In this document: one piece after another, positions 9,901 through 58,804 of the stretch | How the letters are laid out: every line of letters begins with the position of its first letter | Numbering within the stretch: the stretch's first letter is position 1 | NCBI GenBank assembly: GCA_964016885.1 | Contig: OZ024753.1 | Coordinates: 29,574,001-29,638,000 of the forward strand | DNA: 64,000 bases | Direction of reading: 5' to 3' | Source of the DNA: Eledone cirrhosa | Lineage: Eukaryota | The notes under the pieces: generated by a model | Databases searched by the model: none | Told to the model about the DNA's origin: nothing | The model's input: the letters and a program-made list of their open reading frames with translations, nothing else | Position numbers and translations under genes: made by a program

Positions 9901-10415
9901 CCAGGTCGAATCGATCGAGTAACCCCTTGAGGCTGCTACACCCCCCTCTATCGGGACATGCCCCTGCATAGTCCCAACGCGCATCTAGGATTCCATTCCA
10001 GTCCCCCACTAAAAGCAGGGAACGCGACGTTCCTAGAAAAGTCTCCAGACGTTGGAAGAAGTCGGCTCTCTCCGCCCCGAAGGGAGCATAAAGACCGACC
10101 AGTCTGAAAGCCCCGCCTTCACCACCTCCGACGTCCAGCACCAGTAATCGACCCCCCGGGTCCGAGTGAACAATCTGTACGTCGAGAGTCAGACGTTTAT
10201 CCAGCAGTACGGCAACTCCCCCCCCCCGCCTCCGGGTTGACAGAGAGATGCGTGCATCTCAAAGTCATCGAAGGCGGGCGCAGCTGTCTCACGCTGCTGA
10301 TCCGACTCTCGCAAACAACCATCACATCTATACTTTGTGACCTGAGGTCACTTAGAAGCTTTGCTTGCTTCCAAGCTGAGCTCAGGCCACGCGCGTTCAA
10401 ACAGCCAACTCTCAA
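6986..10415 (-). CDS. Tx1 ORF2: AP endonuclease, reverse transcriptase and C-terminal zinc finger; two 1-nt deficits near 10281 and 10220
   Basis: APE motifs LNARGL, GDWN, SYLDR, SDH; KSPGLDG, FRPITLLN, DQSKAFDRV, QGCPLS, YADD; CPRC..HALVHC; 1051-aa open stretch 6986-10141. Confidence 0.92.
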
Positions 10416-10420
10416 TTGAT

Positions 10421-12255
10421 CTATTTTGGTGTTGAAAGTGAAGAAAGAAAAGCACTTACCTCTCCGGGTTGCGTAATTTCCATGGCATCAGGTGTGTTGG
10501 GTGGAGGGATGTTTTGTGGTGGTGTGGGGGTACACGTGTGTGGTGGGGTTGGGGTATTTGGAGTTGTGTCAGGGAGAGGGGCGGTTATGGGGAAATCTTT
10601 CAAGAGGACGCGATTCAACGGTTTTAAACAGGGGGGGCTCACGTCCCGTCTAAATTGTTCTTTTAAGGAACGATAAAGGTCCAGAGGGACCTTTATCATT
10701 TTTAAATGGGTGAAGTTCTCTGTTGAGATAAAGTTTGGCCCTTCGGTCTGCACCATAGGGTTATTGTTTATTAATTTAACCAGTTTTTTGTTTTCTTTAT
10801 TTATATATGTGTATTGCAACGTCTTTTTTTGTGATGCTGTCAATGTTTCGGAGAGGGGAGGCGCAGATTTATTTTTGTTTGTTGAGGGTGGGGTGTTTTT
10901 GATTGGAGTTGGTGTTTGTGTGTGGGTTATTTGTGGTGTGCTGGGTGTGTGTTTTCTTTTTTTTCTTTTAACTTGTCTGAAGGCTTCTCCTCCTTCTTCT
11001 TCAGAAGTTGGGGGAAACTCTTCAGCGCTAGGTGGGAGGGACGTGTTGTGTGGTTGTTTTTTTTTGCGGGAGGGGTAGATTTGTTACTGTTTTTTTTATT
11101 ATTTGTTTGGAATGGGGTTTGTGGTGGTGGTGGTGGTAATGTTTGTGTCGTGCTTGTGGTTGGTGATGGTGGTGGTGATGTTTGTGTTGTGGTTGGTGGT
11201 GGTGATTTTTGTGTCGTGCTTGTGTTTGGTGCTGGTGGTGGTGATGTTTGTGTTGTGTTTGTGGTTGGTGGTGTCTGTATTTTGTTTGCTGTGTGTGGTA
11301 TTAGTGTATTTTTGGAGGTGGGTGGTGCTGGTGTACTGTTTGTGGTGGGTGTGGGCAATAGTCCTTTTTGGGGGATACGTTTCGGGCAGTTAGCCTTAAC
11401 GTGTCCCCTTTCCATGCATAAATAGCATGCTGGTCTTCTCCCCTCTACAATTATGTCTATTGGGGTAAGGTCATCCAGCCAGATGCGATCCGGGATTTGT
11501 GCTATTCTTTCGGGCCTCATTTGGACTAGTATGTCGAGGCCCATTCCCAGGAACGCATCTCCAGTTGCCTTCCCCATTGACAGCATAGTGTCTTCGCCCA
11601 TATCAATGAAGCCAGCAATAGCCCACCAGAAGTCCATTGTGGGCAGCATTGTTTTTACTTTTACTCTCTGTGTTCTTCTACCCATGTAGGAGGGATAGAA
11701 GCTATATGTTGTCGACGAGAGTGGGCTTAGGGAAAGCTTCTCCGCCGTTTCTTTGTCTCTTGTTAGGACCGAAATGCTGCCATAGAGTCGGTCCTTTCGT
11801 ATGAAGAGAATATTCTTCATATAGTCTTTTAGGACTAACTCTATTTCCATTTGGCTGGGCTGTGCTGGCTTTCTTGTCTGGTTCAGTATAGTTCTGTATA
11901 TAACTGTGTTTTCTGCTCTGGCTTTCTTGAATTCTGGGGGGGAGTTAATGGAAAACATTCCGTTCTCCCCCAAAACAATATGTTTCTTTGCTTCGGCCAG
12001 TTTTTCTCTGGCGGCAGTTAGGTCAATTGGTGTGTATGTAATGGATTGCTTTGTTTTCTGGGCGAAAGTTGCCCTGTCGTTATTTGTATTATTTTCTGTT
12101 TGTTTGTTTTCTGTTTGCTCATTTTCCTTAACATTTGTTTTTTCATTTTGTTTGTTTGTTTCAATGTCTAATTTTGTTGTAATTATTTTTTGTTCTTCAG
12201 ACTTGGGGGGCGTGGCAGAGCTAATGGCAGACATGTCTGCCATCTTTTCCGCCAT
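10421..12255 (-). CDS. Tx1 ORF1 (gag-like zinc-knuckle protein); one frameshift, probably in the T-run near 11060
   Basis: CYLCMERGHVKANC knuckle, P/T-rich linker; both halves align with element B ORF1. Confidence 0.85.
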
Positions 12256-12456
12256 GCTGCCAAGAAAGAAATTTTTCGGCAAAAATAGATATTTATTTTA
12301 CCCCCTAAAAAGGGGGTAAATGCAAAAATGTTTCCCTAAATAACAGGGGTTAGTGTTCCAAATGTGTTGCACTAAAAAATTTATCCGGTACTTACAATAG
12401 TAAGGGTAAATCCCGATGGAATAGCGGAGCCGATGCGAAGCGTGTCTTACTCTATC

Positions 12457-12703: not shown

Positions 12704-15262
12704 CTACAGGATGGTATACAGAGAAGGCCCATTTGCACGAGCCATTCTCGCCACTATCACCCACCTTTCATAAAACTGCCTGTGGCCAAGCACCTCTCTC
12801 TCCATTCTTATCCTTCTTCCGAAGTGATATCGGAAGAAGTAGACCAGACTTTGGCCAGAGAGGAAGTTGCCTGACCTCAGACCTTTTAATCGTGTCCACC
12901 AAACAACCTCTTTCAACATGACTATTACGCACAGAAAAACCGCCTTTGCTTCCTTTGTGAAGAGGGGAGGCGGCTTGATTATCATCACGGACTCGGCGGT
13001 CAATCGAATCGGCGCCACCCGCGACAGCAGTCGTTCGGCGTAGCCGTCGGGAGGCATCGGTCTGCCTCTCCACGTTCCGAGTTGCAGCCCGATGGATTTT
13101 TCCCGGTTCAGTTTCGCTCCTGACAACCTTTCGTAATCCTCCAGTAAGGAACCGATCGCCTCGATCTCCGAGTCGGTCGATACCATTACTGTTACGTCAT
13201 CGGCGTAGGCCGACACCGCTTTGCTCAATCCTGGTTCCAGGGGGATACCCTGCAACAACTCCAACTTCCTCAGTAAAGGCTCGAGAGTCAATACGTACAG
13301 AAGGGAGGAGAGAGGACACCCCTGTCGAATGGATCGTGTGATTTCGAACGCCTTCGAAAGGTAGCCATTCACCTTGATCCTAGAACAGATGTGGTTGCTA
13401 TGTAAGGCAGTGATCCAGCCTCTGAAAACAGGACCGAACCCAGCCGCCGCTAGCACCGCATCCAGGTAACCATGGTCGACCCTATCGAAGGCCTTAGACT
13501 GATCCAAGTTGATCAGGGCCCCACCGAAGCCGGGTTTGTTGTCAACCCTCTCTATGATGTATCGCATGAGGTGGAGATTATCGTGAATGGACCTGGATGG
13601 GATAGCACATGTCTGCGCATCTCCCACCAGGCTACCCACGACAAGCGCCAACCTCTTTGCTAACACCTTGGCCAAAATCTTTAACTCTGTGTTTAGCAGG
13701 GTTATGGGCCGAAAATTATTTATACTATCCCCCTTGTTCTCGTCCTTCCTCACCAGCGAGACTACGCCCTTGGCTACAGAGCAAGGAATTCTCCCGTTCT
13801 GCTGCCAATTGCAGTAGACCGCTTCGAGGAGTTCGGAGAAGAAGACCGGCATTGCTAAATAAAGTTCGTAAGGTATACCATCGAGACCTGGAGATTTGCG
13901 TCTGCTGCATTGGCTCAGCGCATCCCCGATCTCATCAGCCGAGATTGGTCCCTCGCAGGACTCTGCCACTTCGCTCGAGAGACGCGGCAGGCCGTCGAGG
14001 TATGGACCGAAATCCACGTCCCCGCCCGGACCCTCGCCTCCCCCGAATAATCGGGCAAAGTGCCTTTGAAAGGCCTCGCACATCTGCTTAGGCTCCAGGA
14101 TCACCCGTCCATCCTCGTCTTGCAACGACCGGATCGTGGATCGATTTCCACTCTTAGCTTCTGTCACGCGGGCCCAGCCAACGGCTTTGGCCCCCTCATT
14201 ACCTAGAGCACGTATTTTACTTCGAATGACGCAGCCTTCGTGCTTTACATCGAAAAACTGGTTCAAGGCCGTCCTCGATGCCAGCACTCTGGCCACATCT
14301 TCGCTCTTGATTGCCTCTTCTAATTTACCTGTTAATTCTTTCTCGTTTCTATTCCTATCGGCAGCTAACATCTTGCTATAACTTATTGATTCTGTTCTAA
14401 TCTCTCTTTTGAGAGATGCCCACCATCGGTTGTTGACGATTGCACCCGTCAACCTCTCCTTAACTAATCTGCTAATCCGGTTTCTGTAAGTCTCTTTTGC
14501 CGGTAAAGACAAATTAAGTTTCCAGTAACCGGGACCCTGTTTATGTGTTTTCTCGAGATTGACTACGCTGGTCACTAATTTGTGATCCGTATAGCCAACC
14601 GTGAGCATTTCTGGACAGCTTAATATGTCCCTATCCTTACTTCTAACTAAGAATCTATCTAAGTACGATCTAGATTGACCACTATGGTTCGTCCAAGTCC
14701 AGGTAGGCACAGTTGGAAAATCTAATGGATATCTATCGACCAAGTTAAAACGGTCGAGTAACCCCTTGAGGCTGTTACACACCCCTCTATTAGGACATGC
14801 TCCTGCATAATCCCAACGTGCATCTAGGATGTCATTCCAATCCCCCGCTAGAAGCAGGGAACGCGACGTTCCCAGAAAAGTCTCCAAACGCTGGAAGAAG
14901 TCGGGCCGTTCAGCTCCGAAAGGGGAGTAGACGGCGACCAGTCTCAAGGCCGCACCTTCACTACTGCCAACGTCTAGTACCAACAAACGACCCTCCGGGT
15001 CCGAGTGAACAACCTGTACGGTAAGACCCAGGTGTTTTTGCAGCAGTACGACAACCCCACCCCCACCTCCAGGTTGACAGAGAGATGCATGCACCTCAAA
15101 GTCATCGAAGGTAGGGGCCAGCTGCCGCACGACGCTGATCCGAGTCTCACAGATAACCATTACATTTATACCACATGACCTGAGGTCATTTAGAAGCTTT
15201 GCTTGCTTCCAAGTTGAGCCCAGGCCACGTGCATTCAAACATCCTACTCTTAACACATCCAT
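12704..15262 (-). CDS. Tx1 ORF2 (APE-RT), 852 aa, lacking about 293 aa including the zinc finger
   Basis: MDVLRVGCLNARGL, GDWN, TDH, YADD; junction PPDG/YAERLL near 13044. Confidence 0.92.
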   Translation of the reverse strand: MDVLRVGCLNARGLGSTWKQAKLLNDLRSCGINVMVICETRISVVRQLAPTFDDFEVHASLCQPGGGGGVVVLLQKHLGLTVQVVHSDPEGRLLVLDVGSSEGAALRLVAVYSPFGAERPDFFQRLETFLGTSRSLLLAGDWNDILDARWDYAGACPNRGVCNSLKGLLDRFNLVDRYPLDFPTVPTWTWTNHSGQSRSYLDRFLVRSKDRDILSCPEMLTVGYTDHKLVTSVVNLEKTHKQGPGYWKLNLSLPAKETYRNRISRLVKERLTGAIVNNRWWASLKREIRTESISYSKMLAADRNRNEKELTGKLEEAIKSEDVARVLASRTALNQFFDVKHEGCVIRSKIRALGNEGAKAVGWARVTEAKSGNRSTIRSLQDEDGRVILEPKQMCEAFQRHFARLFGGGEGPGGDVDFGPYLDGLPRLSSEVAESCEGPISADEIGDALSQCSRRKSPGLDGIPYELYLAMPVFFSELLEAVYCNWQQNGRIPCSVAKGVVSLVRKDENKGDSINNFRPITLLNTELKILAKVLAKRLALVVGSLVGDAQTCAIPSRSIHDNLHLMRYIIERVDNKPGFGGALINLDQSKAFDRVDHGYLDAVLAAAGFGPVFRGWITALHSNHICSRIKVNGYLSKAFEITRSIRQGCPLSSLLYVLTLEPLLRKLELLQGIPLEPGLSKAVSAYADDVTVMVSTDSEIEAIGSLLEDYERLSGAKLNREKSIGLQLGTWRGRPMPPDGYAERLLSRVAPIRLTAESVMIIKPPPLFTKEAKAVFLCVIVMLKEVVWWTRLKGLRSGNFLSGQSLVYFFRYHFGRRIRMEREVLGHRQFYERWVIVARMARANGPSLYTIL

Positions 15263-15295
15263 GTGGGCGGGAGAGCCAAAGGAGAGTGTAGAGAC

Positions 15296-16999
15296 CTACC
15301 TTTCTGCTTCCCGGGGTTCGGGTCGCACGACTTCCATGGGGTCGGGGGTGTTGGGTGAAGGGGTGTCTTGTGGTGGTGTGGGGTCGTCAGTGTGTGGTGG
15401 GGTTGGGGTGTTTGGAGTTGTGTTGGGGAGGGGAAGGGGAGGGGGAAAGCTTTTTAGTAGGACGTGGTTTATGGGTTTGACAGAGGGTGGTCCTACGTCC
15501 TCCTTAAAATCCTTTTTTAGTTTTTGGTAGAGGTTCATTGGGATCTTTATTAATTTTAAATGTGGGTAGTTTTCTGAAGAAACAAAGTTTACACCTTCGG
15601 TTTGTACCGAAGGATTATTGTTTATGAGTTCATTTAATTTATTATTGTTTCTGTTGATGTAAGTATAGTGTAATGTCTTTTTTTCAGATGGTGTGAGTGT
15701 TTCGAAGAGGGGAGGGGCAGGTTTAGTTTTGTTTGTTGCTGGAGGGGTGTTTTGTGTTTTGTTGGATTGTGTTGACATTTGGGTGGGGGTTGTTTGGCCT
15801 TGTGTGTTTTGCACATGTTTTCTTTTTTTCCTTTTAATCTGTCTGAAGGACTCCGTTTCTTCCTCCGAATTCGTTGGGTTATCTTCAGTGTTGGAGGGAA
15901 GAGGTATGTTTGCTGGTAATGTTTCCGTGTTGGTTTTCTTTGTGGAGGAGATGGATGTCACTATGTTAGACTGTGTTGTGTGTTGTGGCTGCGGTGGTTG
16001 TGTTGTTTTATTGAGTGAGGGGTTGGGTGGGCCTGTATTTTGTTTTGGGGTAATGTGTTGTGACTGTTTGTGTTGTGGTGGTGGTGTAGTTTTACTGAGG
16101 GACGGGTTGGGTGGGACTGAGTTTTGTTGTTTGTTTATCTGTTGTGGTGGTGGTGGTGGAGCTGGTGTTGGTAGCAGGGTTTTCTTTTTGTTGAGTTGGG
16201 GACAAGCCGCCTTCAGGTGCCCTCTGCCTGCACAGATATGACAGGACGGCTTTCTCCCCTCCACGCTAATGTTTATATACCCGTGGCCCTCTAATAGGAT
16301 TCTGTCGGGTATTTGGGCGATGCGTTCAGGCTTCATTTGCACTACAAGTTCTATACCTGTTCCACTGAACGCATTGCCTGTGATTTTCCCAATGGAAATC
16401 ACGTTGTCATTCGCTGGATCGATGAAGCCAGCTATGAGCCAGCAGTAGTCCACATCTGGCATCATTGCATCCAGCCATATGCGTTGAGTTCTTTTACCCA
16501 TATAAGATGGATAAAAGGTAAAATTTTTCGAACGAATCGGTGACAAAGCACATTTTTTTGCTGCCGATTCGTTCTTCATAATAATCGCTAGGCTTCCATA
16601 CAGTCTGTCTTTTCTTATGAAAGTGGTTTCATTAAGTACTTCTGTAAGTACTGTTTTGATTTCTGTTTGAGTTGGCTGTTCAGGTTTTATAGAAATGTTG
16701 TTAATGGTGCGGAAAACGACCGTTCGACTTTCAATGTCTTTGGTGAGTTCTTGAGGCATTTTTACCGATAAAATACCATTTTCTCCTTCAGTTATGTATT
16801 GTTTGGCGTCTGTAATTCTTTGTGCCACATCTGAAATATTTCCAGGTATATATGTCAAAGATTTCTTTGTTGTTTGTGCAAATGAAATATTATTGGTGTT
16901 GACTTTGTCGTCTGCTTTGCTTTCTGTTATGATGTTGTTTTCAAATGTTATTTTTGTGTTTGTCGTGTCTTTGTTTGTGGTATTAATATTGTCATGCAA
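15296..16999 (-). CDS. Tx1 ORF1 (zinc-knuckle protein); true start uncertain, possibly further upstream
   Basis: CHICAGRGHLKAAC; IRKDRLYGS and FYPSYMG shared with element A ORF1. Confidence 0.85.
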   Translation of the reverse strand: MHDNINTTNKDTTNTKITFENNIITESKADDKVNTNNISFAQTTKKSLTYIPGNISDVAQRITDAKQYITEGENGILSVKMPQELTKDIESRTVVFRTINNISIKPEQPTQTEIKTVLTEVLNETTFIRKDRLYGSLAIIMKNESAAKKCALSPIRSKNFTFYPSYMGKRTQRIWLDAMMPDVDYCWLIAGFIDPANDNVISIGKITGNAFSGTGIELVVQMKPERIAQIPDRILLEGHGYINISVEGRKPSCHICAGRGHLKAACPQLNKKKTLLPTPAPPPPPQQINKQQNSVPPNPSLSKTTPPPQHKQSQHITPKQNTGPPNPSLNKTTQPPQPQHTTQSNIVTSISSTKKTNTETLPANIPLPSNTEDNPTNSEEETESFRQIKRKKRKHVQNTQGQTTPTQMSTQSNKTQNTPPATNKTKPAPPLFETLTPSEKKTLHYTYINRNNNKLNELINNNPSVQTEGVNFVSSENYPHLKLIKIPMNLYQKLKKDFKEDVGPPSVKPINHVLLKSFPPPLPLPNTTPNTPTPPHTDDPTPPQDTPSPNTPDPMEVVRPEPREAER

Positions 17000-17425
17000 T
17001 TTTTCAAATTTTTTTTTTTTTTCGTTGTTGGAATCAATGTCCAGATTTGTGTTTTCGTCATTTTTCTCCGCAGATTCGTCTGTTTTTATTTTATTTTTTC
17101 CTTCCTTCTCTATGACGTTAGTTGGGAAGGAAGGGGGACTAAAGCGTGCGAGCTTACAACTCTTACCGCTGTCCCCCCACCACTATTTTCGTTAGCTTTG
17201 TTTAACATTTCTGTCAGACGATTGAAATTTTTTATGCCACAAAATTTTTAAAAACAGGTTTTTCACCCCTAGGAGGGGTAAAGATGAGCTGACCCACCGC
17301 CTGACAGCTACACAATAGTATCAAAATTAAAATTGAACTTACAAAATTTCCGCAATAAATTTGAACAAAACTTCTGCGCGAAGTGAATTACATCTACGCT
17401 GTAGAACAGACGACAGCTAGATTAT

Positions 17426-21971: not shown

Positions 21972-22170
21972 TGCATGGTCTTAAAAGACACATGAGAACA
22001 CAGCCAGAACAAAGCAATGAAAAGTTCCAGAGGAGCCTACAGTTGCCATGTATGTGCCAGAGGGTGCAAGTCTTTGGCTGGTTTAAAGAGCCACATTCGT
22101 GCCTCACATTTTGTAGCATTTTATCGGGCGATGGCAATGCTCGAACACGAGTTTGCAGCCATCATGTACG
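21972..22170 (+). mobile_element. RTE-like LINE 3' end with C2H2 fingers and (ATGT)n tail
   Basis: HGLKRHMRT and CHVCARGCKSLAGLKSHIRASH; tail ctcgaacacgagtttgcagccatc recurs at 22490-22525. Confidence 0.6.
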
Positions 22171-23352
22171 TATATGTGTGTATGTATGAATGTGTATATG
22201 TACCTACGTATGTATGTATGTATGTACGTACGTATCATCTTGGTTAAGAGAGTGGGACTGGCTTTGTGCAGTGCCTTTGCTCACTATAAAAGCTTCACGG
22301 CACAGGCATTGCTTTATATCTGGAGATCTCTCTGCACTTGTCATCACATGGTACCATGGGCCCAGCACTATGTGTCAATAATTGTCACAAGTGTAGTGTT
22401 TGTACCAGAGTTTTCAAGTCGCTGGCTGGACTAAAAAGTCACACTTGTTTAGCGTATCGGTAGGGGTTCTCCTACATGGATATAAAGTAGTGGCCGTACT
22501 CGAAAACGAGTTGGCAGCCACCATGTACGTATGTATGTACGTATGTATATATATATACATGTGTGTGTGTGTATACGTGTGTATTTTATGTATGTAAGTA
22601 TGCATGAATGTATGTATATATGTATGTATATATGTATGTTTGTGGTATGTATGTATTTTATGTATATATTTTATGTATGCATGCATGTATGTATGTATGT
22701 ATATATGTGTATGTAAATGTGTTTGTATGTATGTATTTTATGTATGCATGTATGTATGTATAAATGTATGTATTTTAGGTATGTAAGTTTGTATGCATCT
22801 TATGTATGTGTGTGTATGTATGTATGTAAGTATATATGTATGTAAGTGTGTATGTATGTGTGCATGTATGTATATATATATATGTTTGTATGTATGTATA
22901 TATGTACGTATGTATGTATATAAGTACGTATGCGTGTACAATCAACATTATTTATGTGTGCCATGTAAAGTAAACAGAAACTGTTGATATTACATATAAG
23001 AGGTATACACTTAGAAATAATGTGGAATAAATATCACATTAAGGTAGAAAGATCAAAGTATGTGTTACCTTTGGCATTTAAAAAAACCTGCCAATGATCG
23101 ATTGTTTCAACAAATCAATCGTGTATAGAAGTATCTATTACTAAGTGGTGTGAAGTCTCTTTGTAAACAGCTCTCCTTTATACATGGATCTATATTATTG
23201 ATTATTACTTAATTCCCTGTTCTGCCATGAATATAATGTATAATCTAATTGCTAAATATGTATAATTTAGGAGTCTGTGAACTCGTGTAGTTCAGTGTTC
23301 GGCTCATGATCGTAAAGTCAGACATTCGATTCCCGTTTACGGGTTGCGTCCC

Positions 23353-25186: not shown

Positions 25187-25378
25187 GTAATTGTTTCTAC
25201 TTTAGGCACAAGGCCAGCAATTACCCAGTGCATTACTGGTACTTTATTTTATCGACCCCGTAAGGATGAAAGGCAAAATCAACCTCGGCGGGATTTGAAC
25301 TCAGATCGTAAAGGGACGTAACTATGCTGGAAAGCATGGCGTCCGACCCTCTACCGATACTGCCAATCCACCGCCCTA
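25186..25378 (-). mobile_element. Nin-domain tRNA SINE
   Basis: Matches the 21267 copy; further copies at 27640-27820, 31660-32030, 40090-40215, 41220-41400 (-) and 44570-44745 (+). Confidence 0.85.
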
Positions 25379-25825
25379 TTACTATTATATATAATAGTAA
25401 TAAACGAAAGATATATACTTTATATCATCTCCTTTGAATGAAATAAATAGAGATAATCTAAAGTAATATCTTTCGTTTATTACTATTATTATTATAATAA
25501 TACTCCGGATAAATATATATCGTTGAGTGCTTGGCATCTGTTATATAAAAGAGTCGGTTGATTACAAATCAACTAACTCTTTTCTCATTGATTAAGTTAT
25601 ATATATATAGGAATTAATAAAGTAATATGATGAGTCCTATGTAGTTCTAGATAAATAGTAAATATTTTTAATTTGTTATTTTCAGACGTAATTATTTATA
25701 TATATGCCTAACTTTAAGACTGTCTTCTTTTTTTTTTCTTTTCTTTCCTTTTTACAGATAAATCTGTCGAAGTAAAATATTAAAAGCGAAAATACGGACA
25801 GAAAAGGGAAACAGAGGTCAACGAA

Positions 25826-26173
25826 ATGGAGAAAGACGCTGGTACAGTGTCAGTGGATGTGAACCAATCAGCTGCAACTTATGAATCACTGGTTACACCA
25901 TCAGCAGCCACATATGAATCACTCATAACACCGGATCGAGTCGAACGACCTGATCACATTCCCGTATTTGCCGAAGACGAAGACGGATATTACCGAGGCA
26001 AAAACAAATTCAACGCACACAAAAAATACGTGCCCAAGATATCATACAGACATTTTTCCTTGCCCTTTCGCCGACGGGAACTTGTCGTCCTCTGTTCAGG
26101 ATGTCTGCTCATGTGCATTGCACTGGCACTGATAGTGACGGGAGCCATACGAGTACACGGCTGTAGTTGTCCG
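25826..26173 (+). CDS. Coding exon 1 of a type II membrane F-type lectin-domain protein (cytoplasmic tail and TM); join 25826-26173, 27033-27126, 27959-28093, 31492-31581, 34504-34633, 36470-36554, about 293 aa
   Basis: Acceptor tttacag at 25757 upstream of ATG; YESL twice; RRR followed by hydrophobic LVVLCSGCLLMCIALALIVTGAI; phase-0 donor ccg|gtaggg. Confidence 0.8.
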
Positions 26174-26354
26174 GTAGGGGGAGCCATTGCATATCTAGTC
26201 ACGGTATTGTAGTTGCCCATGTGAGTCAGATAGCTATCTTTGGTTGAATGGATGGATGAATGAATGACTGGATGACTGATATCTTGATATATTCGTAGAA
26301 ATGATATTGAAACCGCGTTTCGCCGTTTGTTAACCCTTGTTTATTTGTGTATTT

Positions 26355-26395
<41 letters not shown>

Positions 26396-26532
26396 TTTCT
26401 TTCAACTCGACATTAATCATAACACGATTTGATTTCTAATCAATTGTAGAATATTATCAGTGAATAAATGATTCGATAAAAGGAATTAAAATTATGTTTG
26501 AGACCTTCATGTATGTTTAGATGTCATGTGTG

Positions 26533-26578
<46 letters not shown>

Positions 26579-26867
26579 AATATTATATATGCGCACATAC
26601 ATAAATATATATATATATATATATACTGGCAACTCATTTATATCAAATAAATTAGATAAATTGTAACCAATACTCCGGAGTACACAGACCTACATATATA
26701 CTTCGTCGAGTGCTCTATCCTGCATACACTAGTGTTAGTTGATTAACTAACACAAAATATATCAAATATATATATATATACATATATATATAGTTGAAAA
26801 TGAACGAACAAAAGAAAGGAGGCAATTGTACAGTTATATTAGGTTCACGCTTGGTGGAAGTGGAGGT

Positions 26868-26905
26868 GGTTTCAATGTTTCGGGCGGAAGTCCTTCATCA
26901 GGAAA
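26868..26905 (-). ncRNA. Minimal hammerhead ribozyme-like motif
   Basis: tttc-CTGATGA-a-GGAC-ttcc-GCCC-GAAA-ca-TT-gaaa. Confidence 0.65.
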
Positions 26906-27032
26906 GTTCGGATAGGGGAAGAACGGGAATTCCGAGGAGGAATAAGAGGGGGGGGTAGTAAGGAAGATTTGTGTATATTATTAATATATATGTATGCATG
27001 TATGTATATATGTGTATCATTCTTTTATATAG

Positions 27033-27126
27033 GATTTCATGAAATGCTTCGGCGGAAGCGATATGCCCTCCTATTCAGAAGATGATATACATTTGATACC
27101 ATTACGGAATCTTCGGAATCTTACAG
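27033..27126 (+). CDS. F-type lectin gene exon 2 (stalk: DFMKCFGGSDMPSYSEDDIHLIPLRNLRNLT)
   Basis: tcttttatatag acceptor, ag|gttagt donor, phase 0 to 1, open frame. Confidence 0.75.
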
Positions 27127-27958
27127 GTTAGTAAAACATTGAAAATTCATTCTCACTAGTTTAATATTCTTACATTTTCCAGCTTTGTTGAAAATATAGT
27201 TTATTTAACAAATATAAAATTTCAGTTTCATTTGAACTCGCTTTGATCGATCGACAAGATCCCAGACCTCATTCGCTCGCCAAGTGGCGTAGACCTCGTC
27301 AAATCGGACCAAGGAAACAATGTTTCCATTGGTCTTTCCATTGATGATACTATCTACCGGTTGCAACTCCTCGCAGAAGGAGCAACGTGAGATAAAGTGT
27401 CTTGCTCAAGGGCACAACGCATCACCCGGTCCGAGAATTTAACTCGCAACCTCACGATTGCGAAACTAACTCTCTAACTACTAAGCCATGCACCTTCGTC
27501 AAAAATTCATTCATGTTCAATCGCCAAGTCAATAATAGGATATAAGAGAATGTCCTAATAAAGAACAGTAACAGCATGAATGATAATATGATTTATGTCA
27601 CCGAAAGATAATCATTTATATTGTATTTCCTTATATATAAAATTGTTTCTACTTTTGGCACAAGGCCAGTAATTACCCCAGTACATTACTGGTGCTTTAT
27701 TTTATCGACCCCGTAAGGATGATAGGCAAAGTTAACCTCGGCGGGATTTGAACTCAAACGTAAAGCTCCATAACTCTATGCTGCAAAGCATGGTGTCTGA
27801 CGCTCTACCGATACTGCCAAAATGTGAGGAATATCTTTCTTAGAAAGAAATATACATATTTAGAGACCAACCTTATACATTCGCTGTTAGTCTCGTTTTC
27901 ATTAACTATATTGTTATGGCATAGATAATACATCATTACTATATGTTTTTTCTACTAG

Positions 27959-28093
27959 GCAGCACCTTAATGGACTTCAACTATGCGCTGGAAAAACCTT
28001 GTAGGCAGTCTTCAACTGGTGGAAACAATGGTACCATGGAAGGTGATTCCAGTTATGCAGTAGATGGAGATTTTAAGACCTGTTCACGAACTG
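27959..28093 (+). CDS. F-type lectin gene exon 3 (NYALEKPCRQSST...SSYAVDGDFKTCSRT)
   Basis: FTP N-terminal pattern N-x-AL-x-KP-x2-QSST and AVDG; phase 1 to 1. Confidence 0.9.
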
Positions 28094-29319
28094 GTAATAT
28101 ATTTCACACTATACCGTATTTTACCTGCATGGTAAATAATCTGAGTTAGATACTACGTTCCTGCAAAGACAATTTTGTACATTTTATTTTCTCCCGTGAC
28201 TAAGTGATTGAAAATAACATTGATCCCCACGCCTCTGTTCCTATGGATAGAGCACATTGTCCTCCAGCTTTTGGGTGTATATTGGAGTCTTTTAAGAATA
28301 CTTTACCGGTTTCACAGTTCTTATGATTATCAAAAGTAAAATCTGTTGTGGTGTGTCTAGCATCTAACTGGAGTTTAAATAATTCTTTCTGTTTTATACA
28401 GAAAAAAAGTGTCTTATTTCTGTTTTATACAGAAAAAAAGTGGCTTATTTCTGTTTTATACAGAAAAAAAGTGACCTATTTGTTTAAAATGCAATTTTGT
28501 TGGTCGATGACTGTCATCAGCCAACAAAACTGCATTTTGCTTTGCTCTTTCGCCTTCTTTCTTTCTCTCTGGTTAAAAGGTATATATTTCATGGTCAAAT
28601 ACATGGTGGGCAAAAGCGGTGCTAAATGTCACTTTCAGTTATAAGCACTCAAATAATCTCAAACAGCAATCGATTCCATATGCATGCTAAATCTTTTTCA
28701 GAAACTCTCATACTTAGCCTATAACTTTCCTATTTTTTTTCTGTGTCTTATACACACACCCAGAGAGGACCACATGTGTGTGCACTCAAGTTATTGATGC
28801 ACATTCACTAATTCCTACATACATGCAGATACAATCAGTCTTCTACTAACTGATATAAATAGAAACGTTCTCACTGAAATACAACTGCCATATCACTCGT
28901 TTCTATTTTTGAATTACTGAAGTACATAATCTTATACGTTATTTACATACATACGTACGTGCATGCATACATACGTACATACGTATATATGTACATACAT
29001 ACATATATTTGTACATATATACATATATTTGTACATATATACATATATAAATACATAGATACATACATACATATGTACATATGTACATATGTATGTATAT
29101 ATGTACATATATATGTATGTAAGTATGTACATATGTACGTATGTATGTATGCATGTGCATATGTATGTATGTATATATGTACATATATATGTATGTATGT
29201 ATGTACATATGTACGTACATACATACTTATGTACATACGTATGTATGTACGTACATACGTATGCACATACATATATACATATGTACATAAATATGTACGC
29301 ACATACATACATACATACA

Positions 29320-29351
<32 letters not shown>

Positions 29352-29450
29352 CGTACATATACATACATATACATACATACATATACATACATATACGTAC
29401 ATACATATATACATACACACACACACATATATACATACACACACACACAC

Positions 29451-29522
<72 letters not shown>

Positions 29523-29889
29523 GGTGTGGGTGTGTGGGTGTGTGGGTGTGGGTGTGTGGGTGTGTGGGTGTGTGTGTGTGCATATGTACGTATAATAAAT
29601 GCAGACACTTCAAGAAGTTATTTTAGTTACCAGGAAAAACACAAGAACACCTGATTAAGCTGATTTGATATGCTGTGGCGTACTATGGGAACACACATAC
29701 ACACACACAGCCACATACACACACACATGTATTATATGTTGTTGTACAATAAACACATGAGAACCTCGCTAAGAAAGAACATTCTTTTTGCTATGAAAAT
29801 CATTTTTTCTCTTTTTCTTTTCTGTGCTGTGAACACGTCACAGCTATTACTGAGGCCTGTGAGAATATCAGACTGTTCTTTCAAGATTC

Positions 29890-29966
<77 letters not shown>

Positions 29967-29979
29967 TCTGTTTACCTTT

Positions 29980-30013
<34 letters not shown>

Positions 30014-30248
30014 TGTATACATATATATATATGTATGTATGTATATATATATATATATGTATATATATACATATATATATATGTATATATATACAAATAT
30101 ATATATGTATATATATACAAATATATATATGTATATATATACAAATATATATATGTATGTATGTATGTATACATATATATATATGTATGTATGTATACAT
30201 ATATATATATATGTATATATATACATATATATATATGTATATATATAC

Positions 30249-30279
<31 letters not shown>

Positions 30280-30482
30280 TGTATATATATACAAATATAT
30301 ATATATGTATGTATGTATGTATACATATATATATATGTATGTATGTATACATATATATATATATATGTGTATATATACATATATATATATGTATATATAT
30401 ACATATATATATATATACAAATATATATATGTATATATATACAAATATATATATGTATGTATGTATACATATATATATATAT

Positions 30483-30673
30483 ATAACAAATTTAATATAG
30501 AAATGACTTCTACATGACTTTAATTGTTTCATTCGAAGGAAATCATCAGGAAAGCCCTGATGATTTTCTTCAAATGAAACAGTTCTAGTCTTGTAGAAGC
30601 CATTTCTATATTAAATTTGTTGTATACACTCTACTAATGTATTGAGTACCTTACTTACTGTGGTTACCCCCGA
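30483..30673. mobile_element. Fold-back hammerhead-bearing element in (TA)n (Penelope-like terminus)
   Basis: Arms 30483-30550 and 30556-30625, CTGATGA..GAAA in each arm, one-sided tail; family copies at 51660-51811 and 58010-58058. Confidence 0.7.
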
Positions 30674-30958
30674 GTGTGTGTGTGTGTATGTGTGTGTATG
30701 TGTATGTGTGTGTATGAATGTGTGTATGTGTGAATGTGTGTATGTGTGTAAGTGTGTGTGTGTATGTATGTGTATCTGTGTGTATGTGTGTGTGTATGTA
30801 TGTATGTAAGTGTGTGTGTCTGTGTATGTGTGTGTATGAATGTGTGTATGAATGTGTGTATGTGTGGTTGTCTGTGTATGTGTGTGGGTGAGTGTGTGGG
30901 TGTGGGTGTGGGTGTATGGGTGTGGGTGTGTGTATGCGTGCGTGGGGCGTGTGTGTGT

Positions 30959-31018
<60 letters not shown>

Positions 31019-31328
31019 TGGTAAAGTGGATTATTTCTTCAAACCTGAAGGGTTCGCGTTGTTGATGACGTTCGTCAGTTTCTTGGAATTAATCTAAAAT
31101 ACGTGTGAGTCAGTGTTTGTCTGAGTTCGTGTGTGTGTGTGTTTGTGTGAGTGTTTGTGTGTTTGTGTGTGTGAGTATATGTTTGTGTGTGTGTGTGTGC
31201 GTTTGTGCGTTTGTGTGCGTGTGAGTCAGTGTTTGCATTTATGTGTGTATGTGTGTGTTTGTGTGAGTATGTGTTTGTGTATGTGTATGCGTTTGAGTTT
31301 GTGTAAGTATGCGTTTTTGTCAATGTCA

Positions 31329-31413
<85 letters not shown>

Positions 31414-31491
31414 ATATATGCATTAATAAAAATAATTAGTCTCATGTAATCAATTAAAGTTAATTGAAGACTTTTGTGTTGATATTTTTAG

Positions 31492-31581
31492 ATGTTGAAC
31501 ATCGGCCATATTGGCAGGTGAACTTGAACAAGGTGCGGCAAATACGTAAAGTTATTCTAATAAGCAAAGACACTCACACGT
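31492..31581 (+). CDS. F-type lectin gene exon 4 (DVEHRPYWQVNLNKVRQIRKVILISKDTHT)
   Basis: PYWQVNL corresponds to the FTP PWWxVDL motif; phase 1 to 1; GT-AG sites. Confidence 0.88.
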
Positions 31582-33579
31582 GTACGTATGTCTTTTAATA
31601 TAATGCTTTCTCATTTAGACACCACAAGACCAACATTTTTTTTTTTTTGTGTGAGGAGTGGAAAGCCGATTAAATCGACCCCAATGCATTACTGGTACTT
31701 TATTTTATCGACCCCCGTAAGGATGAAAAGCAAAGCTAACCTCGGCATGATTTGAACTCAGATCGTAAAGGGCCGTAACTCTGCGCCATAAAGCATGTTG
31801 TCCGACGCTCCACCGATACTGCCACCGCCCTAATAATAATGGTTTCTACTATAGACACAAGGCCAGCAATTTTGGGGGGAGGGGAAGTCGATTAAATCGA
31901 CCCCAGTGTGTTACTGGTACTTTATTGTATCGACCCCCGTAAGGATGAAAGACAAAGCTAACTTTGGCAGGATTTGAACTCAGATAGTAAAGGGCCGTAA
32001 CTCTATGCCATAAAACATGTTGTCTAAAGCTCTATGGAACATGAATGATAATGTCATCCTAATGAATCAAGATTCCAGGAATATTGGCTAATATCATTAC
32101 CATGAATTTCTGGGAAATGGTGCTGGACATTTACAAACCCATTTTAATCTATTTAACCATGTACAGGGCTGTAACTCTATACCACAAAGCATGTTGTCCG
32201 ACGCTCCACCGATTCCGCCAATCCTCGGCCTTTATGTCTTTTAATATATTACCATCAGTGTAGCAACCAACACCATCAGTACCAATATTATCACCAGTAC
32301 CCTTTCATCATCATTATCAGTAGCTGCATCAGAATAATTCACAGCCAATGCCATTCGATAGATAGTGATCAATGAATTAAGTATTCGATTAAAGCAAGTA
32401 CTGGGATCAGTGTGATTAGCTCTTAAAAGCCCAGCCATGGCCGGAATCAATGACTGAAATCAGTAACGTTATAAAATAATTAAAAAATCAATAGATGGCA
32501 AATTATGATAAAACAATAAAAATCGTTTTTTTTTTTAAATTCGAAAACAAAATGTTTGCGAGACAGATTCAGTCTTGCTTGATAATATTTTAAAACCTAA
32601 TAACTCTGCCTTGGTATGTTATGGCTTAGGACAAAATACTTTGTACCAGTTAACTATGTGAATCACCCTAATCGATATCTGGTCGTGTGTCTATGATAAA
32701 AATCCTTAATTAAAATATCCCAGGGTGGAATCTTGGCAAAATGATTGTATTTAGTAATATCACTTTAGTTTCTGAGAATAATTCTCTCCTGTGTCGACTG
32801 TCTATTATCTTTCTAGATTTGAATAAAATAGTGGTTGGTTATGTTTTTTCGTGTGAAAGCGAACTATAGACTTATGAACAAGCCAATTCTAACGGAGACT
32901 ATCATCCCATATTTTGTATATCGTGGAGTATATTTTTCTATGAATTCTTTATTTTTAAGACTGCTGGGTTTACGTTAAGGGTTGTATGGTTGATGCCTCT
33001 ATTTACTTGAGCGAACACAGAGAGGTTTGCTGATATACCAGTTAAGTAATGAGGTCGATCAAGTCACCTATACCTCTCTTTTTATGCCAAAGAATCTGAC
33101 CTTGTGCCTATTTTAGAAATCAATATTTCAAAGCATGTTTCAAATCTTTGACTTCAAAAGGCCGCTTTTTTCTATCATAATAACAAATCGATATTTGGAA
33201 CAAATATTAAAAAGAACTCGCGTTATTGTTTTGTTTTATTCTTTAACAAATATTAAAATAATGTTTGGAAGAAATACAATAGATTCGCTTTTGGGGAATT
33301 TGTATGTTATAGCTTTAAAAATAAACTGTTGCCATATTACAGGAAGTGAGTTGACATTTCACGTTACGATTATAGTCTTAGTGTTATTTTAAAACAATAT
33401 TAATTCAAAGAAAAACAAATTGAATTCATGAAGAACGAAGTCTTTAAAAAAAAGCACAGGAAACATTAAAGTCAAACGTCATTCTATTTAATTTATTTAT
33501 TAATAAATTTGTCTTTTCGTTATTTGACATTGTTCTAGAAAATATCGTTTTCTTTTGAGGAAATAAAATATCACGATTA

Positions 33580-33755
33580 TGTTTAAGATGAGTGTGGAGG
33601 CACATCGGTGCAAGTCCGCCATTGTGCACCGAAGCCGCGTGACGGCCAGCACGTGGGCCCCCAATTGCTGATAATAGTGAGAGATGGGGAGAGCGGGAGA
33701 GACGGAGGCATTGGCAGTGGGAGTTTGGTTCCTTTGTGTTTCGGACCTGGTGTAT
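33580..33755 (+). mobile_element. Short element homologous to the CRE 3'UTR
   Basis: Aligns with 20265-20355 and 45695-45780. Confidence 0.55.
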
Positions 33756-33986
33756 ATATGTGTATAATAACGGGGACACACTCACGCTGGGTCTACTTGA
33801 ACAGTATCAATCTTAACGTTAAATCATAAAAGTGATTATCTGGAGACTATAATAAACATTAAACCTCAACTATTCCATACAAATCATTGCTTAAAATTAT
33901 TCATGTCATACAGAATATGATTATTATTTCCATCAACATGATTAAATGCCTCTACTTGTGTTTACACTCGTACATACAAGCATGTA

Positions 33987-34068
<82 letters not shown>

Positions 34069-34089
34069 TATATATATATATATATATGA

Positions 34090-34332
34090 CAAGTAAGTAT
34101 GTTTTGAAACAGTGAGCAGGTTTGAAATTAGAAATAGAATAGCTTTCACCGTATTTTTTTGACTAAAGAAATTTTAGTCTGATAATGGGGTTTAGAACCC
34201 TCAGGTAAATGGAAAAAGGAGTATTGATGTACGTACATCAATACTCATCTTTTTCCATTTATCTGAGGGTTCTAAACCCCATTATCAGACTAAAATTTCT
34301 TTAGTCAAAAAAATACGGTGAAATCTATTCTA

Positions 34333-34340
<8 letters not shown>
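34090..34340. mobile_element. Fold-back element in (TA)n, same family as 3725-3995, opposite orientation
   Basis: Near-perfect arms around gatgtacgtacatc; tail on the left. Confidence 0.75.
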
Positions 34341-34394
<54 letters not shown>

Positions 34395-34503
34395 ATTATT
34401 ATATATATATATATGTATATAGTGGAAACCAATTTGTGACCCAGTACAGCCATTTCTTAGAATCTAAATATATATATTTATAGTGAGTTATTGACTGTTT
34501 CAG

Positions 34504-34633
34504 CTCCCCAAAGATTCGACGTTCACGTTGGAACCAGTCCGAATGTAACCGAGAACCAAGTGTGTAAACGCTACCATAGTGTCCCATCAACTCCACTGGC
34601 AACGATATTCTGTGAAGAAGATTTAAGTGGAAA
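34504..34633 (+). CDS. F-type lectin gene exon 5 (PQRFDVHVGTSPNVTENQVC...TIFCEEDLSG)
   Basis: tgtttcag acceptor, aa|gtaaga donor, phase 1 to 2; fits the FTP V-x-VG..N..C..C pattern. Confidence 0.88.
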
Positions 34634-35416
34634 GTAAGAATTTTTACCATTTTATTTAATTCTATCTTTAGTATAACAAAAAAAAGTAACCCCTATTTTC
34701 TCTACTTATTTTTTGTTCTTTTGTCTATATCACAGAACTTTTCCTTCCTAGCAACAATGCTCATTTCTAGAATCAGATTTTACCGAGTTTGGGGAGATAT
34801 TTTGTTGTTCTTTTTTATTAATGAAAGCTTTTCTATCGCCCTATCAAACTTAGTTCCTATCTGAGGAACAATTCTACATATTTCTAAAGGAGCAGCAGGT
34901 ATTATCGAAGTCAGTGCTTAACTTGTTCTTATTTTATTAATCACGGGATGATGAAATGTTCAATAAAGCACGGCCCGTATTGAATAAAGAACGTAAGGGA
35001 TCGCAACTAAATACAGAATTGGGTTTTTTTGAGATGTAGAAAAAAAACACTAGCAGGATACAATCTGGTTTGAAAACGTTTAAAGTGAATTACAACTGTT
35101 GACTGGAAATGTGTAGTTGGGGAAGGGGTTCCATTAGACAAGTCTACAAAGTTTGGGACACAAACACATATATAGCGTAATCTGTCCACATCTTGACCCC
35201 TGGATAACACTTAACGGTCGAATTCTGGGTTACCTCCTTTTTGGCGTAAACAAGTCTATGCGTGGGCGATCTCTCGAGGCAGGGGACAGAGGAAGCGACA
35301 GATATAAATAGCCTGCTCGGACCAAGCAAAGGCAGTTCTGAGCAGTTCTTGAGAGAGAATAACAATGTAAAACATTTTGCTTTCTACAGATCCCTTGGGG
35401 CTACAGACTTCTACAG

Positions 35417-35481
<65 letters not shown>

Positions 35482-35704
35482 GGTCTTACAGGCACTCACC
35501 TTTTCTGGCCACAGACTATTTCACTCTAACAGCAAAAACATCGTCAACCTTTATAACTTTTACTGTTCCATTAATGGATTCAACATCGTGTGTAAACAGA
35601 CATTGTCTGAATGTATTGTCTGATCTTCACAACACAAACAATAATTCTATATATATATAATAATTCAACACAAACAATAATTATATATATATATATATAT
35701 ATAC

Positions 35705-35762
<58 letters not shown>

Positions 35763-35804
35763 TAATAAAATAATAGAAGGGTGTAAATCCTTGAAAGGTT
35801 TATT

Positions 35805-35852
35805 ATACTATGATCATTTCAATGACCGGGTTCCGTATGAATCATCAGGTAT
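35805..35852 (-). ncRNA. Hammerhead ribozyme-like motif
   Basis: atac-CTGATGA-...-GAAA-TGATCA-TA-gtat then AATAAA; palindromic loop III. Confidence 0.6.
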
Positions 35853-36469
35853 TCGAAATATAATAAATGAATGTAACAGATAAAATCCATGGGGCTGAAA
35901 ATCATAGACCCGAGGACGACCGACCATCTAGCGTTTTCCACTTTAGCCGGTCGCCCTTATATATATACATATATATATAATCGTATTTAAGACTATTCAA
36001 CAGAATTCGTAATATAATCGGCGTGTCTCCCTACAACCCCAAAGAACAGAATGGAGAGTAGTAACTTAGTCTTTGTTCATTTATTAACTGAAGTGAAGTC
36101 AATTTTGTATCAAAACGAAACCATCTATTTTGTGTTATTTCACCTCTATAATGAACCCGCCAGTATCTAAGACACAAGTTCTCATTTAAGCCTCTTTCAT
36201 CAGCCCTCTCTCTCTCCTTCGCAACCTCTAACTCTGACAGAGTTTCAACTTGGAACAATAAAATATGCCACAAGGTATCAATATGAGATATATGAACCAT
36301 CTCACAACATTTACTAGCTTTGCTTCACTTCACACACACCACTTAGGAACTTTGTTGTTCCAAACGTACTTCAGAGTTTCTACTGAAATACGCTGACTTC
36401 AAGTTCTATTGGACACCATTTTTCTTTTTCCATGCAAAATTCCTGACAAAGTGTTTGTTTATATTTCAG

Positions 36470-36554
36470 ATATGTTGGTATTATTTTGAACGGAACAAAC
36501 GAAAACGGAACCGGAAGTTTGGTACTATGTGAAGTGATTATCTACCAAGAGTGA
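36470..36554 (+). CDS. F-type lectin gene last coding exon ([28 protein letters not shown])
   Basis: atttcag acceptor, phase 2; FTP C-terminal G(R/K)YV...LxLCEV motif. Confidence 0.9.
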
Positions 36555-57995: not shown

Positions 57996-58804
57996 TATTT
58001 TAATATAGATGAGATTCTACAGGACTAGAACTGTTTCATTCTTTAGAAATCATCAGGATATATATACATATATATATACATATATATATACATATATATA
58101 TACACTCGAAGTCGATGGTAACTATGGACGAGGAAGGCCAAGGAAAACTTGGGATCAAGTGATAAAAGCTGACCTTGCCCAATTAAACTTCACATAGATA
58201 ACACAGGATCAAGACCTGTGGTGTCATGCTGTACTGCAGAACTCCCTGCTCCCTCCCTCCATGTACCCAATGAAACAAACATGCAGATGACACACACTAG
58301 CCTGCAACAATCCTCTCTCCACCAATCAGAAAATAGATATGACTGAAGCTTTCTTGTATTAGTTGGCTTTCCTAGTACTTTACCCATTGGTAACTTTGTA
58401 TAAGTTATTCTATGTGTGTGTGTAGAATAACATTAAAACATTACATAAATATATATTATAATATTATATATATATATCTTCCATAAACATTACATGTCCA
58501 TACCAATGCAGTCTTCTCTCTTGCAAACTACAAACTATCATACTTCCAGCCCATTTTCTTTCTGGCTACCACACATTCAGAGTTTCCTCCCTCGCTACTG
58601 ATTAGGTCACCTAAGTAGCAAAAGCTGTCCAAAACTACTAGGGAGCCTCCCAAGCAATTGAGTAAATCTATTTCACGTGTGCTCCTAGTGTTCACTCCTG
58701 TGCATCAGTCACATACAAAGTCTATCTTTTCCATTAGCCTGCCTATAATCCCTGCAAAAGGAAATGCTATTCTTACAGCACTACATCCCTTTAAATATTA
58801 TACA

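What the first reader, a model, noticed from the sequence alone, without database searches (positions are those of the whole stretch)
25826..36554. Type II membrane F-type lectin with an ITAM-spaced cytoplasmic motif: candidate invertebrate signalling pattern-recognition receptor
Seen: six phase-compatible exons give about 293 aa, with no signal peptide, an 85-aa N-terminal tail with YESL-x7-YESL (25880-25924, from a 33-nt duplication), RRR, one TM helix, a Cys-containing stalk and one C-terminal FTP domain. Known: an ITAM is YxxL/I-x6-8-YxxL/I and binds tandem SH2 kinases (Syk, Shark); Dectin-1-like C-type lectins use this type II topology; most F-type lectins are secreted. Inference: a convergent lectin receptor coupling glycan recognition to tyrosine-kinase signalling. 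The acidic residues usual upstream of ITAMs are only partly present.
Basis: partly seen in the sequence, partly recalled or inferred. Interest (0 to 1): 0.78.

Follow-up and report, generated by a model that had tools for sequence, protein, structure and literature searches.

The report
Mollusc membrane receptor with altered lectin
This is a real octopus-type gene for a membrane-anchored protein, shared with snails and bivalves, whose lectin-like outer domain lacks the usual fucose-binding residues; it likely works as a receptor that is sorted into the cell with its cargo, and its immune-signalling-like tail motif is a short duplication seen only in octopod relatives.

Summary
The gene is real: six GT-AG exons give 293 aa with a cytoplasmic tail, one transmembrane helix and one F-type lectin-fold domain; Octopus and Argonauta orthologues are 96-98% identical. 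It belongs to an undescribed mollusc-wide family (limpet, vent snail, mussels, scallops, oysters). (1) The double YESL is not a family feature: present in the window and 3 named octopods, single in the sister branch (3 sequences), absent in 22 of 22 gastropod/bivalve sequences; it also lacks the acidic residue three before either Tyr. (2) The fucose-binding motif is missing in 18 of 18 family domains, while the calcium motif is kept. What the family conserves in the tail is an acidic, dileucine-like motif, so a sorting/endocytic receptor for a non-fucose ligand is my best reading (0.45). The ITAM reading is not dead (0.2): both copies are under purifying selection (6 synonymous, 1 conservative change), the tail is invariant in four octopods, spacing is canonical, and the genome encodes a Shark-type kinase.

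The parts
25725..25757 (+). Polypyrimidine tract and AG acceptor: the ATG exon is preceded by an untranslated exon elsewhere
   Evidence: sequence; contig 25 of run X4 starts at 25757 and carries 60 other letters before it
25826..26173 (+). Coding exon 1 (aa 1-116): cytoplasmic tail, TM helix, start of stalk; phase-0 donor
   Evidence: contig 26 of X4 ends at 26172
25868..25933 (+). 33-nt tandem duplication encoding two 11-aa units; 6 synonymous and 1 conservative (V/I) difference
25880..25924 (+). YESL-x7-YESL (aa 19-33): ITAM-spaced pair, each half also a YxxPhi sorting-type motif
   Evidence: distribution
25934..25969 (+). Family-conserved tail motif (aa 37-48) ending in D-x-x-P-[VM]-[LF]; acidic dileucine-like (inferred)
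   Evidence: alignments; scan
25976..25993 (+). DEDG followed by two Tyr (aa 51-56): the tri-acidic run named for Dectin-1, but without Leu/Ile at +3
   Evidence: PMC11624271 passages
26021..26035 (+). Conserved [RK]-K-Y-V-P segment (aa 66-70)
   Evidence: Y68, V69, P70 at least 90% conserved
26069..26149 (+). RRR stop-transfer cluster and single transmembrane helix (about aa 82-108)
   Evidence: helix 83-111 in the model
26162..26164 (+). Cys113, invariant just outside the membrane; candidate inter-chain disulfide (inferred)
   Evidence: invariant in 12 of 12
27033..27126 (+). Coding exon 2: stalk
   Evidence: joined to exon 3 in contig 27 of X4
27959..28093 (+). Coding exon 3: start of F-type domain, calcium motif AVDGD (28057-28071), Arg191 in place of the fucose-binding His (28087-28089)
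31492..31581 (+). Coding exon 4: F-type domain; K-D-T (31566-31574) where canonical domains have R-x-D-C-C
34504..34633 (+). Coding exon 5: F-type domain, Cys243 and Cys259
36470..36554 (+). Coding exon 6: end of domain (Cys286, Glu287) and stop

Best explanation
The gene encodes a single-pass membrane protein with a cytoplasmic N-terminal tail and one outer F-type-fold domain that lacks the fucose-binding residues, and it likely acts as a cargo or clearance receptor that binds a non-fucose ligand and is sorted into endosomes by clathrin adaptors reading its tail. Shown: gene structure, fold, loss of the fucose motif, retention of the calcium motif, mollusc-wide conservation, the tail motif and the distribution of YESL. 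Inferred: type II orientation (charge bias and sequons), a disulfide-linked dimer through Cys113, a ligand surface around the conserved T192-D193-x-E195, and adaptor binding. In this reading the old signal is the acidic dileucine-like motif; cephalopods, whose version ends in a weak V-F pair, gained a YxxL sorting signal, and octopods doubled it; the ITAM spacing is a by-product of an 11-residue repeat unit.
For: Family of 253-296 aa proteins with the same layout in Lottia, Gigantopelta, Mytilus, scallops and oysters; their lectin domains are one side of a long branch (18 of 50 rows, support 87/100); the intron after the TM falls at nearly the same place in a mussel-like cluster. More Lys/Arg before than after the TM in 21 of 21. 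Fucose motif 0 of 18 family domains against 19 of 32 other F-type proteins; His replaced by Arg 11, Glu 4, Gln 2, one gap; calcium motif in 17 of 17 that cover it. Tail: D-x-x-P-[VM]-[LF] in 18 of 22 non-cephalopod sequences and a strict [DE]xxxL[LI] in the other 4 (oysters); with the Pro, the pattern appears in 0.6-2.9% of tail shuffles. [DE]xxxL[LI] and YxxPhi are AP-adaptor signals (PMC2173715, PMC4584282, passages). Double YxxL 0 of 22 outside cephalopods, single in the sister branch.
Against: No trafficking or ligand data. The tail pattern was derived from these same sequences, many of them congeners (about six independent lineages), so 22 of 22 is partly circular. It matches the strict dileucine consensus only in oysters, where it is not in the aligned position; M-L as a working pair is recalled from the invariant chain, not tested, and the octopod V-F pair is a poor fit. 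The conserved segment is 12 residues long, longer than a dileucine signal needs. YESL lies 52-66 residues from the TM, beyond the 10-40 given for endocytic YxxPhi (PMC4584282). Only 24 of 335 simulated YESL-doubling duplications give 6-8 spacing, and both copies are under purifying selection, which fits an ITAM as well.
Confidence: 0.45

Rival explanations
1. Cell-recognition or adhesion receptor (Furrowed-like): the altered F-type domain binds a protein on neighbouring cells or matrix, and the tail tyrosines are Src-phosphorylated docking sites for single-SH2 adaptors or a phosphatase, not Syk/Shark.
For: Found once in this genome and slow-evolving (96-98% across octopods), as expected for a self-ligand. 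Transmembrane F-type proteins with degenerate motifs exist in Drosophila and Furrowed acts in adhesion (PMC5712786 section 8 and passages, PMC12221842 passages). Y68 is at least 90% conserved.
Against: No expression or ligand data; Furrowed is a multi-domain protein with CCP and C-type domains; does not by itself explain the dileucine-like motif.
Confidence: 0.25
2. One reading: a single YxxL was duplicated into a working ITAM; clustering would lead to Src-family phosphorylation and recruitment of Shark or Syk, driving phagocytosis or activation.
For: Spacing of 7 is canonical; only 24 of 335 simulated YESL-doubling duplications give 6-8; 6 synonymous to 1 nonsynonymous change between copies, p about 0.003 under neutrality; 0 of 84 tail differences to three octopod orthologues against 5-11 of 182 outside. 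The genome has an SH2-ankyrin-SH2-kinase locus whose activation segment best matches ZAP-70/SYK. An oyster ITAM-Syk pathway is reported (PMC6994640, passages).
Against: No D/E at -3 of either Tyr, which the consensus quoted in PMC6994640 has; absent from 22 of 22 gastropod/bivalve sequences and single in the sister branch; selection covers all 11 residues, not only Y and L; no separate Syk gene found in my limited searches (lower bounds); Shark's known site in Draper has tyrosines 15 apart (Y934/Y949, bioRxiv 10.1101/198986) against 11 here; fucose motif lost; background rate 0.023 per 84 aa.
Confidence: 0.2
3. A still-active glycan-binding lectin with a rebuilt pocket (Arg191, Lys218, Arg226 supplying basic residues), acting at the surface or in the secretory pathway.
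For: Three basic residues lie near the canonical positions in the octopod sequences; calcium motif and two disulfides kept; PMC5712786 allows that deviations may mean other specificity.
Against: Lys218 and Arg226 are not conserved in gastropods or bivalves, position 191 varies among Arg, Glu and Gln, and the vicinal Cys pair is absent.
Confidence: 0.1

Closest known systems
F-type lectins (eel agglutinin 1k12, striped bass FBP32 3cqo)
   Same: Fold (Foldseek E 4e-11, rmsd 2.3 A), calcium motif, C189-C286 and C243-C259 cysteine positions
   Different: Membrane-anchored by an N-terminal helix; His/Arg/Arg fucose motif and vicinal cysteines absent
Drosophila Furrowed and CG9095
   Same: Transmembrane proteins with an F-type domain; CG9095 has a degenerate basic triad (PMC5712786)
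   Different: They are mosaics with CCP and C-type lectin domains; this family has a single domain C-terminal to the TM
Dectin-1 / CLEC-2 / CLEC9A hemITAM receptors
   Same: Type II layout, tail tyrosine motif, stalk cysteine, one C-terminal lectin-fold domain; a DEDG run before a Tyr
   Different: Different fold (F-type, not C-type); here DEDG and YxxL are in separate places, so neither forms a hemITAM
Oyster CgIgR-Syk and Drosophila Draper-Shark
   Same: Invertebrate receptors with paired YxxL/I motifs read by tandem-SH2 kinases
   Different: Ig or EGF ectodomains; CgIgR has acidic residues before both tyrosines, this tail does not; function here untested
Type II endocytic receptors (asialoglycoprotein and transferrin receptors; invariant chain)
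   Same: N-terminal tail with YxxPhi (PMC4584282) or leucine-based sorting signals; type II layout (recalled)
   Different: No homology; ligand unknown; sorting not shown

Membership tests
F-type lectin | F-type jelly-roll fold | tested here: met
   Model of the O. vulgaris orthologue P0003 (93 residues at pLDDT 90 or more) matches 3cqo and 1k12 first; phmmer E 4e-13 to FBP32
F-type lectin | Cation motif h2DGx | tested here: met
   AVDG[DSN] in 17 of 17 family sequences that cover it (definition)
F-type lectin | Fucose motif H-x24-R-x-D-x4-[RK] | tested here: not met
   0 of 18 family lectin domains with a loosened pattern; 19 of 32 other F-type proteins have it
F-type lectin | Binds fucose or another glycan | not testable with these tools
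   needs glycan array
ITAM receptor | YxxL/I-x6-8-YxxL/I in a cytoplasmic tail | tested here: met
   aa 19-33, spacer 7; cytoplasmic side inferred from charge bias
ITAM receptor | D/E three residues before the Tyr | tested here: not met
   S-A-A-T precedes both tyrosines; consensus as quoted in PMC6994640
ITAM receptor | Motif conserved in orthologues | tested here: inconclusive
   Kept in 3 of 3 named octopod full-length orthologues; single in 3 sister-branch sequences; absent in 22 of 22 gastropod/bivalve sequences
ITAM receptor | Tandem-SH2 kinase present in the organism | tested here: met
   Shark-type SH2-ankyrin-SH2-kinase exons at G000:C9:41.306-41.329 Mb; Syk proper not found, search incomplete
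ITAM receptor | Phosphorylation and tandem-SH2 binding | not testable with these tools
   needs phosphopeptide binding assay
hemITAM receptor (Dectin-1 type) | Tri-acidic DEDG directly followed by YxxL | tested here: not met
   DEDG is followed by Y-Y-R-G-K; the YxxL motifs have no acidic run
Dileucine-sorted membrane protein | Strict [DE]xxxL[LI] in the tail | tested here: not met
   Window protein has D-H-I-P-V-F; strict match only in 4 of 22 non-cephalopod sequences, all oysters
Dileucine-sorted membrane protein | Binding to AP complexes, endosomal sorting | not testable with these tools
   needs three-hybrid or chimera assay

The most novel reading that the evidence does not exclude
A working ITAM was born in the octopod lineage by a 33-nt tandem duplication of a single YxxL, turning an ancient molluscan sorting receptor with a re-purposed F-type domain into a Shark/Syk-coupled signalling receptor; the three states (no motif, one, two) survive in living molluscs as a natural series for how ITAMs arise.
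Probability: 0.2. Interest if true: 0.78.

Novelty: new variant of a known kind. Interest (0 to 1): 0.42.

Why it matters
It defines an unstudied, mollusc-wide type II membrane family built on the F-type fold without the fucose site, which current annotation labels simply 'fucolectin domain' or 'uncharacterized'. The tail offers a compact test of motif evolution: bivalve/gastropod (none), sister branch (one YESL) and octopod (two YESL at ITAM spacing) versions can be compared in the same binding and chimera assays. If the octopod pair recruits Shark or Syk it would be a rare traced origin of an ITAM; if not, it is a clear example of ITAM look-alikes made by short repeats.

Tried and rejected
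Pfam on single exons: 0 of 6 hit; the domain shows only on full-length orthologues. Sequencing runs: no RNA holder listed; all four runs are contigs from one study. The exon 1-exon 2 junction was not seen directly in this organism: contig 26 stops at the donor with 31 unlisted letters, and a closer look was not obtained. Homodimer prediction: no answer (score 0.01, alignment not used); not evidence either way. First full-length fold model was poor (mean pLDDT 54); VIA-align searches were not obtained. Metagenome scan gave one off-frame bacterial chance match, L033. Atlas: whole protein gave F-type clusters under 0.9; mussel tail+TM gave nothing. Search for a Syk gene: among 39 SH2 and 108 kinase matches I inspected 25 SH2 loci plus three candidate regions; found Shark-type, Src-type and an Ack-like kinase (labels for the last two recalled), no Syk; incomplete. 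SUN-domain identity rejected: SUN hits rank below fucolectins and F-type motifs are present. ITIM rejected from recalled consensus: Ala at -2. The AU test of the clade failed on a call error. Earlier scan notes: nothing. Literature: 0 papers for six locus tags/accessions; searches listed no paper on this family; supplements and non-open papers (such as the 2015 F-type domain survey) were not seen.
Full report
Observation. Six exons (25826-26173, 27033-27126, 27959-28093, 31492-31581, 34504-34633, 36470-36554) have GT-AG boundaries and give an open frame of 293 aa. A search with exon 1 returned a 293-aa Octopus bimaculoides protein and a 282-aa unnamed protein; the cluster also holds O. sinensis, O. 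vulgaris (198 aa, partial) and Argonauta hians. The window protein differs from the three full-length ones at 7, 7 and 12 of 293 positions, so the genome is an octopod's (inference). One contig of run X4 (depth 4.6, no mismatches) joins exon 2 to exon 3 without the intron; others begin at the acceptor 25757 and end at the exon 1 donor. Full 282-aa ORFs on contigs of at most 2.5 kb (13 and 111 contigs) show exon 1 spliced to the lectin exons in a relative. The gene was found once in this genome with three queries (such counts are lower bounds).

Topology and fold. One hydrophobic peak at aa 86-104, no N-terminal signal-like stretch, 5 Lys/Arg before and 1 after the helix, and five sequons after it point to type II orientation (inference, no dedicated predictor was run). 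A model of the O. vulgaris orthologue from a 50-row alignment had 93 residues at pLDDT 90 or more and matched the solved fucolectins 3cqo and 1k12 first (E 4e-11, rmsd 2.3 A).

A family. A search of 1.84 billion representatives (659 hits, best 150 listed) and a profile search (11 hits) gave proteins of 253-296 aa with the same layout from Lottia, Gigantopelta, Mytilus, four scallop genera, Saccostrea, Ostrea and two unnamed mussel-like clusters. Their lectin domains form one side of a long branch among 50 rows (18 rows, 87/100; 88% of bootstrap trees; the 32 others were the shorter hits I picked). The 282-aa protein is sister to Argonauta plus Octopus, with a split several times deeper; I read it as a more distant cephalopod (inference). 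In one mussel-like cluster the read-through ORF ends 4 residues after the juxtamembrane Cys, against 3 here, so the first intron is at nearly the same place.

The lectin site. The review PMC5712786 (section 8 read whole, other passages) defines a fucose motif H-x24-R-x-D-x4-[RK] and a cation motif h2DGx. The cation motif is present in 17 of 17 family sequences covering it. The fucose motif, even loosened, is in 0 of 18 family domains and 19 of 32 other F-type proteins; the His position holds Arg (11), Glu (4), Gln (2) or a gap (1), and the R-x-D-C-C loop is replaced by unconserved sequence. The family instead keeps T192, D193 and E195. Canonical fucose binding is therefore unlikely (inference); another glycan or a protein ligand is open.

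The tail. YESL-x7-YESL sits in a 33-nt tandem repeat. It is present in the window and 3 of 3 named full-length octopod orthologues, single in 3 sequences of the sister branch, and absent in 15 of 15 and 22 of 22 (overlapping set) gastropod/bivalve sequences; two of the 22 have one YNSL elsewhere and two a YVYL at the TM edge. For an ITAM: canonical spacing; 24 of 335 simulated YESL-doubling duplications give it; the copies differ by 6 synonymous and 1 V/I change (p about 0.003); the tail has 0 of 84 differences across four octopods against 5-11 of 182 outside; the genome has SH2, ankyrin, SH2 and kinase exons in order, with an activation segment closest to ZAP-70/SYK, i.e. Shark-type (one other kinase exon matched EGFR/JAK best); oysters have a reported ITAM-Syk receptor (PMC6994640 passages; PMC13344425 passages). 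Against: no acidic residue at -3; the whole 11-mer and the whole tail are constrained, not only Y and L; Draper's Shark site has tyrosines 15 apart against 11 here (bioRxiv 10.1101/198986 passages); no Syk gene was found in incomplete searches; the pattern occurs at 0.023 per 84 aa in other proteins. A DEDG run precedes Y55, as in Dectin-1 (PMC11624271 passages), but no Leu follows at +3.

What the family keeps in the tail is a 12-residue segment ending D-x-x-P-[VM]-[LF] (18 of 22 non-cephalopod sequences and all cephalopod ones), replaced in oysters by a strict D-x-x-x-L-L (4 of 22), plus a [RK]-K-Y-V-P segment and Cys113. [DE]xxxL[LI] and YxxPhi are clathrin-adaptor signals (PMC2173715 and PMC4584282, passages). 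The pattern was drawn from these sequences and many are congeners, so this is a lead with positional conservation behind it, not a test.

Mechanism. Most likely (0.45): a dimeric type II receptor binds a non-fucose ligand with a calcium-stabilised F-type domain and is internalised or sorted by AP adaptors; the YxxL gained in cephalopods and doubled in octopods would be an added sorting signal. Rivals: adhesion/recognition receptor with single-SH2 docking (0.25), octopod-only ITAM (0.2), rebuilt glycan pocket (0.1). Every functional step is inferred.

Novelty. Transmembrane and motif-degenerate F-type proteins are known (PMC5712786; PMC12221842 passages). I found no description of this type II single-domain molluscan family: 0 papers for six identifiers and none in the listings; non-open papers and supplements were not seen. 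Verdict: new variant of a known kind, interest 0.42; the ITAM-birth reading would deserve about 0.78.

Noticed in passing
window 6986-12297 and 12704-17182, minus strand: Two adjacent LINE-type elements, each with an ORF1-like frame and an endonuclease + reverse transcriptase frame (1090 and 863 aa); long open frames suggest recent activity.
   Followed up: partly
window 52126-53451 and 56597-58024, minus strand: Two related reverse-transcriptase fragments with an embedded PHD-finger match.
   Followed up: partly
window 55306-55929, minus strand: 207-aa frame with a weak DDE_3 match, probably a mariner/Tc1-type transposase remnant (family label recalled).
   Followed up: no
window 34127-34340 (intron 4): Palindromic element, 92-nt arms 98% complementary; at least 40 loci scored of 1766 candidates in the genome at 91-95% identity: a MITE-like family.
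   Followed up: partly
window 27640-27820, 27290-27460, 25190-25380, 31660-32030: Very high-copy short interspersed repeats in and around the introns (contig depth in the millions at 27628-27799).
   Followed up: no
window 21996-22460, plus strand: Two weak C2H2 zinc-finger matches below cut-off, next to repeat-derived sequence.
   Followed up: no
G000:C9:41306397-41329239 (L065, L066, L071, L072): Shark/HTK16-type tyrosine kinase gene: SH2, ankyrin, SH2, kinase exons.
   Followed up: yes
G000:C6:17103246-17192642 (L003, L004, L005, L014): Cluster of four SH2 exons, two nearly identical and on opposite strands, near a kinase exon; looks like a local Csk-type expansion (label recalled).
   Followed up: no
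window 25876 and 25951: Two single-letter differences in exon 1 among the laid runs, both at third codon positions; 25876 lies in the first repeat copy.
   Followed up: no
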